Part shown: piece by piece, positions 1,965-3,549 of the stretch
Position numbering within the stretch: position 1 is the stretch's first letter
Layout: every line of letters starts with the position of its first letter
IMG/VR virus record: IMGVR_UViG_2671180283_000018
DNA from: a virus
Taxonomy: Duplodnaviria; Heunggongvirae; Uroviricota; Caudoviricetes
DNA length: 4,383 nt
Direction: 5' to 3' (one strand)
Position numbers and translations under genes: made by a program
Notes under the pieces: generated by a model
Database searches by the model: none
What the model saw: only the letters and a program-made list of their open reading frames with translations
Told to the model about the DNA's origin: nothing

Positions 1965-3278
1965 ATGGCAGTAAAGATTTCAGGTGTACTGAAAGACGGC
2001 ACAGGAAAAACGGTAGAGAACTGCACCATTCAACTGAAAGCCAGACGGACCAGCAGCACGGTGGTGGTGAACACGGTGGCCTCTGAAAATCCGGATGAAG
2101 CCGGTCGTTACAGCATGGACGTTGAGTACGGTCAGTACAGCGTCATTCTGTTGGTGGAAGGCTTCCCGCCGTCACATGCCGGGACCATCACCGTGTATGA
2201 AGATTCTCAACCGGGGACGCTGAATGATTTTCTCGGTGCCATGTCGGAGGATGACGTCCGGCCGGAGGCACTGCGCCGTTTTGAACTGATGGTGGAAGAG
2301 GTGGCGCGTCACGCTGAGGAGGCGAAGAAGAATGCCGGAGAGGCGGAGACGTCAGCGAGGAATGCCGGCATATCAGCCAGTCAGGCAGAAGAGAGCGCTG
2401 CAAATGCTGACACTTCAGCAGGGGATGCATCGGAGTCAGCCCGGCAGGCGGCAGAAAGTGCAGCCGCTGCAAAGCAGTCAGAGGAGGCGTCCTCGTCCTC
2501 GGCCTCTGCGGCCGCTCAAAAAGCCAGTGAGTCATTACAAAGTGCAACAGATGCTGAGTTGTCAAAAAAGACGGCAGAAAGTGCAGCCGGTAATGCAGCC
2601 AGGGATGCAACGACCGCAGCAGAAAAAGCCCGGGAGTCAGCAGAAAGCGCACAGTCAGCGGAACAAAGCAGGATAGCGGCGGAGGAAGCCGTAAACAGAA
2701 TCCCCACCGTGGTGGGGCCTCCCGGGCCAAAGGGGGAACCGGGTCCCGCGGGTCCTCAGGGGCCGAAGGGAGATAAAGGAGAGCGTGGCGACACCGGCCC
2801 GGCAGGGGCAACCGGTGAAAGGGGGCCGGCAGGTGATGCTGGTCCGGCAGGCCCGCAGGGGCCGAAAGGCGACAGGGGAGAGCGGGGAGAGACCGGTCTG
2901 ACGGGAAATGCAGGTCCACAGGGGCCAAAGGGAGATACCGGTGCGGCAGGTCCGGCAGGCCCACAGGGACCGAAAGGAGAAACAGGTGCGGCTGGCCCGG
3001 TGGGGGCAACCGGACCTCAGGGACCGAAGGGCGACCCGGGGGAGACACAAATCCGTTTTCGTCTGGGGCCGGGAAACATTATTGAGACAAACAGCAATGG
3101 CTGGTTCCCGGATACAGATGGTGCGCTCATCACCGGACTGACCTTTCTTGACCCCAAAGATGCCACACGGGTTCAGGGTTTTTTTCAGCATTTGCAGGTC
3201 AGATTTGGCGACGGGCCGTGGCAGGATGTCAAGGGGATGGATGAAGTGGGCAGTGATACAGGCAGAACAGGAGGATGA
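1965..3278 (+). CDS. stf: Side tail fibre protein, Stf-like, with collagen-like triple-helix repeat region (437 aa)
   Basis: ORF ends at TGA 3276-3278. The preferred start is ATG 1965, giving [15 protein letters not shown]…, which matches my recollection of the lambda Stf N-terminus; the GTG at 1959 from the ORF track would add only two residues. Position after lom matches the lambda J-lom-stf order. Contains an Ala/Ser/Glu-rich repetitive segment and a long Gly-X-Y tract. Confidence 0.85.
2449..2589 (+). repeat. Pair of exact 18-bp direct repeats (cggcagaaagtgcagccg) inside the Ala/Ser/Glu-rich part of stf
   Basis: Identical 18-mers at 2449-2466 and 2572-2589, offset by 123 bp (a multiple of 3), each encoding (A/T)AESAA. 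The surrounding sequence has further degenerate copies of the same unit. Confidence 0.8.
2715..3041 (+). repeat. Collagen-like Gly-X-Y repeat tract within stf (~36 consecutive triplets, Pro/Lys/Glu/Ala-rich)
   Basis: Translation [109 protein letters not shown] has Gly at every third residue with no interruption. Nucleotide-level units recur (variants of caggggccgaaagg). Confidence 0.9.
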
Positions 3279-3279
3279 C

Positions 3280-3549
3280 ATGAACATACTAAAAAAACTT
3301 ATGCAGCGTCTGTGTGGTTGCGGAAAGCATGATGACCGTGAAAACGGGGAGTTACTTACAGCACAGCTGCGGCTGGGACCGGCAGACATTCTGGAGTCAG
3401 ATGAGAATGGCATTATCCCGGAGCAGGCCAGGGTAATCACGCAGGTGGTGATACTGGATGCGGATAAAAAGCAGATACAGTGCGTGGTAAGACCGCTGCA
3501 AATCCTGCGTGCTGACGGGACGTGGGAAAATATTGGCGGAATGAAATAG
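3280..3549 (+). CDS. Hypothetical 89-aa protein, translationally coupled to stf; apparent paralogue of the Stf C-terminal domain
   Basis: ATG at 3280 sits 1 nt after the stf stop (TGA 3276-3278) and is preceded by GGAGGA (3270-3275). The 133-aa ORF in the track (from 3148) overlaps stf in another frame, so the internal ATG at 3280 is preferred. Residues ~31-88 align colinearly with Stf residues ~364-425 (anchors RLGP, I-E, NG--P, IT, LD, LQ, DG-W, GM). Confidence 0.6.
   Translation: MNILKKLMQRLCGCGKHDDRENGELLTAQLRLGPADILESDENGIIPEQARVITQVVILDADKKQIQCVVRPLQILRADGTWENIGGMK

What the first reader, a model, noticed from the sequence alone, without database searches (positions are those of the whole stretch)
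3054..3549. Stf C-terminal domain is duplicated as a translationally coupled downstream mini-ORF
The last ~60 residues of the fibre before its tail ([63 protein letters not shown], nt ~3054-3239) align colinearly with residues ~31-88 of the 89-aa ORF immediately downstream (LRLGPADILESDENGIIPEQARVITQVVILDADKKQIQCVVRPLQILRADGTWENIGGM, nt ~3370-3543). By eye about one third of positions are identical with preserved spacing, and the first ~30 nt of the two segments are also clearly similar at nucleotide level. The ORF start overlaps the stf stop region (TGAcATG) behind a GGAGGA site, so the two are probably co-translated. A lambda-type arrangement would have a long receptor-binding C-terminus followed by a ~190-aa Tfa assembly chaperone; neither is present here. 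Possible explanations are (i) a separately expressed copy of the tip domain acting as a chaperone or capping subunit, (ii) a remnant of an alternative tip cassette left by recombination, or (iii) a tandem duplication partway through divergence.
Basis: partly seen in the sequence, partly recalled or inferred. Interest (0 to 1): 0.7.

Follow-up and report, generated by a model that had tools for sequence, protein, structure and literature searches.

The report
Small paralogue of the tail-fibre tip
The 89-residue gene just after the side tail fibre gene of this E. coli prophage is a real, conserved second copy of the fibre's C-terminal knob domain, but the arrangement is already catalogued and published, and only its function is still unknown.

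Summary
Stf residues 361-422 align with residues 29-88 of the downstream 89-aa ORF at 35% identity (E=3e-11, z=20 against shuffles). Both match Pfam PF06820 (Phage_fiber_C, "PfC") end to end. The ORF starts one base after the stf stop (TGA-C-ATG), behind GGAGGA, and is followed by a strong intrinsic terminator.

It is not new. PHROG 576 and NCBI's annotation pipeline already name the small protein. It occurs in 698 of 5426 complete E. coli genomes, with a median of 12 copies, and in phages 933W, Sp5, phi24B and 434. Mondal et al. 2016 described the same 89-aa ORF68 as a PfC-only, non-essential gene. They discussed a frameshift fusion and a "reservoir" role. GenBank records call it "alternate tail fiber tip" or "assembly chaperone".

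New here:
- The PfC domain of the small ORF is under strong purifying selection (piN/piS 0.05, piS 0.12).
- The ATG and Shine-Dalgarno site are conserved in 84 of 84 loci.
- No conserved slippery site or RNA structure supports a frameshift.
- No DNA homology supports cassette exchange.
- Two of its peptides appear in the phi24B virion proteome.

The best reading is a separately translated accessory protein associated with the fibre. It is not a Tfa-type chaperone and not a decaying duplicate.

The parts
1974..3278 (+). stf, collagen-like side tail fibre gene (434 aa from ATG 1974; an in-frame GTG lies at 1959). Architecture is PfN - coiled coil - collagen - PfC, the 'EPclA' type.
   Evidence: Pfam hits: phage_tail_N on residues 1-130 (7e-66), Collagen, and Phage_fiber_C on 360-423. 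PHROG 366 'tail fiber protein'. Architecture as defined in PMC3368898.
2703..3050 (+). Collagen Gly-X-Y triple-helix region of Stf (about residues 244-359).
   Evidence: Pfam PF01391. Matches to collagen chains in the PDB. Internal 9-nt-phase direct repeats.
3051..3242 (+). PfC1, the C-terminal Phage_fiber_C domain of Stf (residues 360-423).
   Evidence: PF06820, 121.2 bits, model positions 1-64 of 64. Shown to be a trimerisation module for this fibre type in PMC3368898.
3179..3185 (+). T7 run inside PfC1 (GGT TTT TTT CAG). It is the only obvious slippery sequence in the stretch where the small-ORF frame is open.
   Evidence: Read directly from the sequence. Present as T7 or longer in only 45 of 84 loci (T6 in 6 more); 32 loci have CTG/ATG TTT instead and one locus could not be scored.
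3243..3275 (+). 11-residue acidic tail of Stf after PfC1 ([12 protein letters not shown]). Its last codons carry the Shine-Dalgarno site of the small ORF.
   Evidence: Conserved in all loci as ...[13 protein letters not shown]. The peptide [11 protein letters not shown] was detected in phi24B virions, so the tail is not removed.
3270..3275 (+). Shine-Dalgarno site GGAGGA, 4 nt before the ATG. Other loci have GGAGAA.
   Evidence: Sequence. AGGAGAATGACATG or a near variant occurs in 84 of 84 loci.
3280..3549 (+). 89-aa PfC-only gene, equivalent to PHROG 576, 933W L0122, Sp5 ORF68 and phage 434 CPT_434_24. Stop codon TAG at 3547-3549.
   Evidence: PHROG 576 full-length match, E=6.9e-60. Homologues appear in 296 phage records and 698 E. 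coli genomes. It is 89 codons long in 86 of 88 copies.
3280..3360 (+). 27-residue N-terminal arm (MNILKKLMQRLCGCGKHDDRENGELLT). It is basic and helical at the start, has a CGC motif, and is more variable than the domain.
   Evidence: piN/piS 0.27. Helix 3-11 in a low-confidence AF2 model. Cys14 is replaced by Tyr or His in some alleles.
3361..3546 (+). PfC2, the Phage_fiber_C domain of the small protein (residues 28-89).
   Evidence: PF06820, 119.2 bits, model positions 1-64 of 64. piN/piS 0.052 with piS 0.12.
3563..3596 (+). Intrinsic terminator (AAAACCGGAGUCCGGCUCCGGUUUUUU) that closes the conserved tail module.
   Evidence: Folding energy -22.1 kcal/mol, z=-4.2, with 0 of 200 shuffles as stable. 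The hairpin sequence is shared by the commonest downstream variants listed. Similarity between loci ends about 20-90 nt after the stop.

Best explanation
The 89-aa ORF is a functional, separately translated gene. It is an ancient paralogue of the fibre's C-terminal PfC knob that has lost the stalk.

Expression. It is the last cistron of the tail operon. Ribosomes that terminate at the stf stop codon (TGA) re-start one base later at the ATG, using a Shine-Dalgarno site built into the last stf codons. An intrinsic terminator follows directly.

Likely structure and role. By analogy with PfC1, which trimerises on its own, the protein most likely forms a small homotrimeric knob that carries a 27-residue basic N-terminal arm instead of a collagen stalk. 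It probably acts as an accessory, sub-stoichiometric partner of the side tail fibre, such as a distal cap or a second binding module. It would tune adsorption or host range in natural hosts but be dispensable for plaque formation on E. coli K-12.

Status of each step:
- Shown here: homology, coupling geometry, conservation, purifying selection and the module boundary.
- Taken from published work on close homologues: PfC trimerisation, non-essentiality, and peptides in virions.
- Inferred: that PfC2 forms a trimer, that it associates physically with the fibre, and that it affects adsorption.
For: - Homology: both proteins match PF06820 end to end. BLASTP E=3e-11, z=20 against shuffles.
- Expression signals: ATG with GGAG 5-6 nt upstream in 84 of 84 loci. 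The ORF is 89 codons long in 86 of 88 copies. The initiation region is A-rich and unstructured, and the terminator has z=-4.2.
- Selection: piN/piS is 0.052 for PfC2, against 0.24 for PfC1, at similar piS of about 0.12.
- Module boundary: the terminator hairpin recurs directly after the ORF in the commonest downstream variants, and similarity between loci ends there.
- Spread: found in siphoviral and podoviral Stx and lambdoid phages and 7387 places in 698 E. coli genomes.
- PfC alone is a trimer of 24 kDa against a 7.2 kDa monomer (PMC3368898).
- Two peptides unique to the small protein, ADGTWENIGGMK and VITQVVILDADKK, are in the proteome of purified phi24B virions. Each has a count of 3, against 38-47 for neighbouring PfC1 peptides.
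- In the low-molecular-weight gel band EA1829 the row that includes small-ORF peptides exceeds the gp61 row (25 vs 24). This is a weak hint of a free protein of about 10 kDa.
- A distant relative, P0151, carries four PfC-like modules in tandem in one collagen-like fibre, so such modules can stack in series.
Against: - No direct evidence that the protein binds the fibre. It has no phenotype: Sp5 ORF68 is listed as non-essential on K-12.
- The proteomic signal is small. It could come from a co-purifying non-structural protein or from a rare fusion. The authors themselves label it 'Spike or just gp59?'.
- There is no covariation between PfC1 and PfC2 alleles (1 of 72 tests at p<0.01).
- Purifying selection shows the frame is translated and constrained. 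It does not show what the protein does.
Confidence: 0.5

Rival explanations
1. Alternate fibre tip made by programmed frameshifting. A fraction of ribosomes shift from the stf frame into the +1 (equivalently -2) frame. The shift would occur either at the T7 run inside PfC1 or at the stop codon. The result would be Stf chains that end in PfC2, much as lambda makes G and GT.
For: - The small-ORF frame is open for 138 nt upstream of its ATG in 82 of 84 loci.
- GenBank KU977420 annotates 'alternate tail fiber tip; slippery sequence and pseudoknot predicted ... +1 frameshift'.
- A T7 run lies at 3179-3185.
- In 83 of 84 loci the last codons GGA GAA would let tRNA-Glu re-pair at GAG after a -2 slip at the weak stop UGA-C (my reading).
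- Small-ORF peptides in phi24B virions are roughly 13-fold rarer than PfC1 peptides, a ratio typical of frameshift products.
Against: - The T7 run is missing in 32 of 84 loci (CTG/ATG TTT). A shift there would also cut PfC1 in two and insert about 30 out-of-frame residues.
- The GGA GAA re-pairing is absent in this window, which has GGA GGA.
- No stimulatory RNA structure: z between -0.66 and +1.14 around the junction.
- Mondal et al. found no frameshift signal.
- No junction peptide was found in the held part of the phi24B peptide table.
- No long in-frame fusions appear among the listed homologues. The only long protein with several PfC-like matches in the representative search is the distant collagen-like P0151.
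- A conserved ATG with a well-spaced Shine-Dalgarno site is not needed for a fusion.
- Synonymous diversity in the stf frame is not depressed across the overlap (piS 0.11-0.12).
Confidence: 0.15
2. Tail-fibre assembly chaperone. The protein would be a functional analogue of lambda Tfa or T4 gp38 that uses a PfC fold to template or cap the folding of PfC1. Phage 434 annotates it this way.
For: It occupies the tfa position immediately after stf and is translationally coupled to it. Phage 434 record OL657226 calls it 'tail fiber assembly chaperone'. Homology to the domain it would assist could allow transient mixed oligomers.
Against: - No similarity to any Tfa or Caudo_TAP family. Pfam at E<=1 returns only PF06820, and NCBIfam returns nothing.
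- Recombinant full-length fibre and isolated PfC fold and trimerise in E. coli without it, and PfC re-nucleates the collagen helix after melting (PMC3368898).
- The fibre gene of Sp5 is essential, whereas ORF68 is listed as non-essential (PMC5155283).
Confidence: 0.12
3. A function away from the virion. The protein would be a soluble copy of the receptor-binding knob. It might block receptors on the lysing cell or its debris, or act in the lysogen as cargo at the edge of the effector-carrying region.
For: - It lies exactly at the boundary between the tail module and the variable cargo of effectors and IS elements.
- It is kept intact in degraded prophage remnants of Citrobacter rodentium next to NleG and lymphostatin genes.
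- PfC2 places outnumber PfC1 places in E. coli genomes, 7387 against 5822.
- Its abundance in virions is low.
Against: - At 35% identity to PfC1 it would probably not bind the same ligand.
- It has no signal peptide or conserved lipobox. The hydrophobic stretch is too short and Cys14 is not conserved.
- It has no promoter of its own and is coupled to a late structural gene.
- The excess of PfC2 places may only reflect megablast sensitivity on the more variable, shorter PfC1 query.
Confidence: 0.1
4. Silent reservoir cassette, as Mondal et al. suggested. The ORF would be a stored alternative tip that occasionally replaces PfC1 by recombination and so changes fibre specificity.
For: Proposed in PMC5155283. 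One database protein, P0066, joins the collagen region in frame to PfC2 at GPA|DILESDE.
Against: - No DNA repeat joins PfC1 and PfC2. The best nucleotide alignment is 54 nt, gapped, and about 70% identical, which is too little for homologous exchange.
- Both copies lie in direct orientation, with no invertase or recombination sites.
- A silent cassette would not need a conserved ATG and Shine-Dalgarno site, nor show piN/piS 0.05.
- All 80 loci with readable upstream sequence end in PfC1.
- P0066 begins at the first bases of a 3.3-kb contig, so it may be an assembly artefact.
Confidence: 0.08
5. Non-functional leftover of a tandem duplication that is decaying neutrally.
For: No phenotype on deletion in Sp5.
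Against: piN/piS is 0.05 at piS 0.12. The ORF is intact at 89 codons in 86 of 88 copies. It is retained in thousands of prophage copies and across podoviral and siphoviral backgrounds. Its peptides have been detected.
Confidence: 0.03

Closest known systems
Sp5 ORF68 / 933W L0122 / phi24B 'gp59' / phage 434 CPT_434_24 (PHROG 576; NCBI 'phage tail fiber C-terminal domain-containing protein')
   Same: It is the same gene: 89 aa, 90-99% identical, with the same TGAcATG junction after a collagen-like fibre gene that ends in PfC, and the same terminator.
   Different: Only allelic differences. This copy has GGA GGA before the stop, so Stf ends ...TGG where other loci have ...TGE. It has Ala50 and sits in a long-tailed lambdoid prophage, with IS1 inserted about 200 nt downstream.
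EPclA / PfC domain of EHEC prophage collagen-like fibres (Ghosh et al. 2012, PMC3368898)
   Same: The upstream Stf is an EPclA-type protein (PfN - PCoil - Col - PfC). PfC is the experimentally defined trimerisation knob, and PfC2 belongs to the same Pfam family.
   Different: That paper studied only the PfC attached to the fibre. The free-standing paralogue shares 35% identity with it, has a 27-aa arm in place of the stalk, and has not been characterised biochemically.
Lambda Stf-Tfa, Mu and P2 fibre-chaperone pairs, T4 gp37-gp38
   Same: A small gene lies immediately downstream of the fibre gene and is co-expressed with it. In some of these systems the small protein stays on the fibre tip (established knowledge of these systems).
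   Different: There is no sequence relationship to Tfa/Caudo_TAP or gp38. Here the small protein is a paralogue of the tip domain itself. The fibre folds without it, and it is listed as non-essential in Sp5.
C-terminal extension by programmed frameshift (lambda G/GT, T7 10A/10B)
   Same: An overlapping open frame in the +1 register lies downstream of a structural gene, and the downstream peptides have low relative abundance.
   Different: There is no conserved slippery site or stimulatory structure. The downstream ORF has its own conserved start and Shine-Dalgarno site.

Membership tests
Pfam PF06820 Phage_fiber_C (PfC) | Match to the family HMM above the gathering score of 25 bits, covering the whole 64-position model. 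| tested here: met
   Stf 360-423 scores 121.2 bits and the small ORF 28-89 scores 119.2 bits. Both cover model positions 1-64.
Pfam PF06820 Phage_fiber_C (PfC) | Forms a homotrimeric globular knob, the property measured for the PfC attached to the fibre. | not testable with these tools
   Shown for EPclA PfC by SEC-MALLS in PMC3368898. The AF2 monomer model of the small protein has pLDDT 50.7, and no multimer prediction was available.
PHROG 576 (89-aa 'tail fiber protein') | Full-length match to the family profile. | tested here: met
   E=6.9e-60, residues 1-89 on profile positions 1-89 of 89.
Tail fibre assembly chaperone (lambda Tfa / Caudo_TAP type) | Sequence homology to a Tfa/Caudo_TAP family. 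| tested here: not met
   Pfam at E<=1 returns only PF06820. NCBIfam returns no family. PHROG hits are only 576, 13758 and 1658.
Tail fibre assembly chaperone (lambda Tfa / Caudo_TAP type) | Gene lies immediately downstream of the fibre gene and is co-expressed with it. | tested here: met
   TGA-C-ATG junction with the Shine-Dalgarno site in the last stf codons. Conserved in 84 of 84 loci.
Tail fibre assembly chaperone (lambda Tfa / Caudo_TAP type) | Required for folding or trimerisation of the fibre and for infectivity. | not testable with these tools
   Published data on close homologues argue against it. The fibre and PfC fold without it (PMC3368898), and ORF68 is listed as non-essential (PMC5155283).
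Programmed ribosomal frameshift extension | A slippery site conserved among homologous loci. | tested here: not met
   A T run of 7 or more occurs in 45 of 84 loci and is replaced by CTG/ATG TTT in 32. The GGA GAA site at the stop is not kept in this window.
Programmed ribosomal frameshift extension | A stimulatory RNA structure near the shift site. | tested here: not met
   Folding z-scores are +1.14, -0.66 and -0.43 for three windows around the junction.
Programmed ribosomal frameshift extension | Fusion product observed (junction peptide or extended protein). | tested here: inconclusive
   The phi24B supplement lists small-ORF peptides assigned ambiguously to 'Fusion_6159_FS1/FS2' or 'gp59_start'. 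No junction peptide appears in the stored part of the file, which was cut.
Exchangeable tip cassette (recombinational reservoir) | DNA homology or specific recombination sites that allow PfC1 to be replaced by PfC2. | tested here: not met
   No direct or inverted repeat links 3051-3242 with 3361-3546. The best local nucleotide alignment is 54 nt with gaps.

The most novel reading that the evidence does not exclude
The free PfC paralogue is a true structural component. It would be a detachable second knob that docks on the conserved acidic tail of the fibre, or is added to a minority of chains by an unconventional -2/+1 shift at the stop codon. It would give the many lambdoid and Stx prophages of EHEC, EPEC, E. 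albertii and C. rodentium a second receptor specificity. That would make it a hidden determinant of how Shiga-toxin phages spread between strains.
Probability: 0.2. Interest if true: 0.55.

Novelty: already known. Interest (0 to 1): 0.25.

Why it matters
The side fibres of Stx and lambdoid prophages are among the most widely shared modules in EHEC genomes, at about 12 copies per genome. Their receptor and their role in spreading toxin genes are still unsettled. The recent phi24B structure paper lists the function of the lateral fibre as an open question. A strongly constrained protein that is co-translated with the fibre and is a paralogue of its tip is an obvious but untested candidate for modulating adsorption. 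As a sequence observation it adds nothing new. Its value lies in the arguments assembled here, which narrow the hypotheses to a few cheap experiments: purifying selection, conserved start signals, no frameshift signal, no recombination substrate, and peptides in virions.

Tried and rejected
- Structure route. AF2 on the small protein with a 6-row alignment gave pLDDT 50.7, so no fold search was run. The phi24B authors report the same failure for this domain. No solved structure shares sequence with PfC; the best PDB hit has E=0.51 and is irrelevant.
- Deep homologue survey. A profile search of 1.84 billion representative proteins found only 85 hits, nearly all E. coli fragments. Comparative analysis across divergent lineages was therefore impossible. 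A scan of one genome per species found only E. albertii and a probable contaminant contig.
- Lipoprotein or secreted-protein idea for the N-terminal LCGCG. Rejected because there is no hydrophobic core and Cys14 is replaced by Tyr or His in several alleles.
- Co-evolution of PfC1 and PfC2 alleles. No signal: 1 of 72 Fisher tests reached p<0.01.
- Frameshift signals. Tested the T7 run, the A7 run in codons 5-6 of the small ORF, the GGA GAA stop-site re-pairing and RNA folding. None is both conserved and structurally supported.
- Chimeric protein P0066 (collagen joined to PfC2). It sits at a contig start and could not be validated.
- Literature search for the GenBank 'atfT' annotation. It returned only unrelated plant papers.
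Full report
**What the window is.** The 4383-bp window is the right end of the tail module of a long-tailed lambdoid E. 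coli prophage. It contains, in order:
- the C-terminal 407 codons of the J host-specificity protein (8-1231);
- lom (1301-1900);
- a collagen-like side tail fibre gene, stf (ATG 1974 to stop 3278);
- an 89-codon ORF (3280-3549);
- a terminator;
- IS1.

An O157:H7 chromosome has the same order, J - Lom - Stf - small ORF - IS1 - OspG-family effector kinase, next to a truncated ompW fragment and yciE.

**Checking the observation.**
- BLASTP aligns Stf 361-422 with ORF 29-88 at 35% identity, 60% positives and E=3e-11.
- A Smith-Waterman score of 101 compares with 22.8 +/- 3.9 in 5000 shuffles.
- Both segments match the entire Pfam model PF06820 (Phage_fiber_C) at about 120 bits, against a gathering score of 25.
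- Nucleotide similarity is marginal. There is one gapped 54-nt alignment just above the shuffle maximum, and no seeded repeat links the two domains.
- There is no Tfa homologue. The ORF is followed by a hairpin terminator (-22.1 kcal/mol, z=-4.2).

**It is already known.**
- The small protein is PHROG 576, an 89-position family labelled 'tail fiber protein'.
- NCBI names it 'phage tail fiber C-terminal domain-containing protein'.
- It occurs in 296 phage records, including 933W (L0122), BP-4795, phage 434 and many Stx1 and Stx2 phages. These include both short-tailed and long-tailed phages.
- It occurs at 7387 places in 698 of 5426 complete E. coli genomes, with a median of 12 copies per genome. 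PfC1 is found in 697 genomes, essentially the same number.
- Named homologues come only from E. coli, E. albertii and Citrobacter rodentium.
- Ghosh et al. 2012 defined the upstream fibre type (EPclA: PfN - PCoil - Col - PfC). They showed that PfC alone is a trimer that nucleates refolding of the collagen helix (PMC3368898).
- Mondal et al. [quoted passage not shown] They listed it among the non-essential late genes, found no frameshift signal, and suggested an 'intragenomic reservoir' (PMC5155283).
- GenBank KU977420 annotates it as 'alternate tail fiber tip' made by a +1 frameshift. OL657226 annotates it as 'tail fiber assembly chaperone'.

**New analysis: is the gene functional?** I collected 80 IMG/VR loci, three annotated phage loci and the window.
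- The ORF is 89 codons long in 86 of 88 copies.
- The junction ...ACAGGAGAATGACATGAA is nearly invariant. The ATG and a GGAG 5-6 nt upstream are present in 84 of 84 loci. The window is the only copy with GGA GGA.
- Across distinct alleles, piS is about 0.12 in both paralogues. piN/piS is 0.052 for the PfC domain of the small ORF, 0.27 for its 27-residue N-terminal arm, and 0.24 for PfC1.

The free copy is therefore more constrained than the domain on the fibre. Together with 35% identity between the paralogues, this rules out a decaying or recent duplication. The terminator hairpin sequence recurs directly after the ORF in the commonest downstream variants, and similarity between loci stops about 20-90 nt after the stop. 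The ORF is thus the last gene of the conserved tail module, before the variable cargo.

**New analysis: frameshift fusion?**
- The small-ORF frame is open for 138 nt upstream of the ATG in 82 of 84 loci.
- The only classical slippery sequence there is a T7 run in the codons for Gly-Phe-Phe of PfC1 (3179-3185). It is absent in 32 of 84 loci. A shift there would also disrupt PfC1.
- In most loci GGA GAA UGA C would allow tRNA-Glu to re-pair on GAG after a -2 slip. This is my own reading of the sequence. The window lacks this site.
- RNA folding around the junction is no more stable than in shuffled sequence.
- No in-frame fusions occur among the listed homologues, which are all 131 aa or shorter. 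In the representative search, the long proteins with several PfC-like matches are outside this phage group, and only P0151 is a fibre-like protein.

A programmed shift is not excluded, but no conserved feature supports it.

**New analysis: reservoir cassette?** No DNA repeats link the two domains. All 80 loci with readable upstream sequence end in PfC1. The ORF keeps its own translation signals. One database protein, P0066, joins collagen to PfC2 in frame, but it lies at the first bases of a short contig.

**Expression evidence from others' data.** The proteome supplement of the 2026 phi24B cryo-EM preprint lists two peptides unique to the small protein, ADGTWENIGGMK and VITQVVILDADKK.
- Each has a count of 3. 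The adjacent fibre peptides [10 protein letters not shown] and [11 protein letters not shown] have 38 and 47.
- The peptides are assigned ambiguously to the authors' hypothetical fusions or to 'gp59_start', and the row is labelled 'Spike or just gp59?'.
- In the per-band table, the row that contains small-ORF peptides exceeds the fibre row only in the low-molecular-weight band EA1829, 25 against 24. This is a weak hint of a free small protein.
- No junction peptide occurs in the stored part of the file.

**Structure.** An AF2 monomer prediction was uninformative (pLDDT 50.7). No solved structure is related by sequence. A distant relative, P0151 (565 aa), has four tandem PfC-like half-domains next to a collagen region. 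This shows that such modules can be arrayed in series along one fibre.

**Conclusion.** The finding is a correct reading of a known feature.
- The best-supported mechanism is a separately translated, translationally coupled and strongly constrained PfC-only protein. It probably forms a small trimeric knob and acts as an accessory, sub-stoichiometric partner of the side fibre.
- A Tfa-type chaperone role conflicts with published folding and deletion data.
- A decaying duplicate is excluded by the selection analysis.
- The frameshift and cassette ideas lack the features that define them.
- The function remains experimentally open.
- Scores: interest 0.25; novelty 'already known'.

Noticed in passing
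window 3691-3760 and 3756-4383: An IS1-family element (insA 3810-4085, left end about 3756) interrupts a short ORF that starts at 3691 (MFSIRTLLPISASVSVPTKQS...). The same J-lom-stf-small ORF-IS1 layout occurs in O157:H7 strain PV15-279, followed by an OspG-family effector kinase and a truncated ompW fragment.
   Followed up: partly
window 3550-3618; L091 2955-3021: NCBI annotates a 67-nt 'tail assembly protein' pseudogene fragment directly after the small ORF. It is simply the in-frame continuation past the TAG stop (PTASQKPESGSGF...). Variants in which the stop is read as Tyr give proteins of 115-125 aa (P0002, P0013). This looks like an annotation artefact rather than a tfa remnant.
   Followed up: partly
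P0151 (565 aa, from the representative library): A collagen-like protein has four tandem repeats whose C-terminal halves resemble PfC (VVVLDADAK...LQVRRADGTWMEI). It passes the PF06820 gathering score. Its origin and genomic context are unknown.
   Followed up: partly
P0066 / L090 4-291: A 95-aa protein joins the collagen region of the fibre in frame to PfC2 at GPA|DILESDE. It would be a natural tip swap if real, but the gene begins at base 4 of a 3.3-kb contig.
   Followed up: partly
L086-L089 (Citrobacter rodentium): A degraded prophage end keeps an internally deleted fibre (PfN fused to PfC, 161-166 aa). About 20 nt further on there is a 78-aa small-ORF homologue with 72% identity and a shortened N-terminus. 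NleG, an IpaB_EvcA-family gene and lymphostatin lie nearby.
   Followed up: no
L084 (Xanthomonas pisi DSM 18956, 725-bp contig): A 93%-identical copy of the small ORF sits on a tiny contig of a Xanthomonas assembly. This is almost certainly E. coli contamination of that assembly.
   Followed up: no
window 3270-3278 and 3237-3242: This copy of stf is unusual in two ways. Among the 84 loci with readable junctions it alone ends ...GGA GGA TGA, where the others have GGA GAA. That strengthens the Shine-Dalgarno site and changes the last residue from Glu to Gly. Among the 80 loci with readable fibre ends it alone has Met instead of Leu in KG(M/L)DEV.
   Followed up: yes
E. coli complete genomes: Places matching the small ORF (7387, median 12 per genome) outnumber places matching PfC1 (5822, median 9). 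This could be a megablast sensitivity effect on the shorter, more variable query, or prophage remnants that keep the small ORF without a recognisable fibre tip.
   Followed up: no
window 1974-2243 (Stf residues 1-90): The N-terminal domain of Stf matches a 94-residue 'Tail fiber protein' chain in PDB entries 9e7m and 9mgh (E=1.7e-48). A solved structure therefore exists for the part of this fibre type that attaches to the tail.
   Followed up: no
window 3292-3298: An A7 run (CTA AAA AAA CTT, Leu-Lys-Lys-Leu) lies in codons 4-7 of the small ORF. It is broken in alleles with Arg5, so it is probably not a conserved slippage site.
   Followed up: partly
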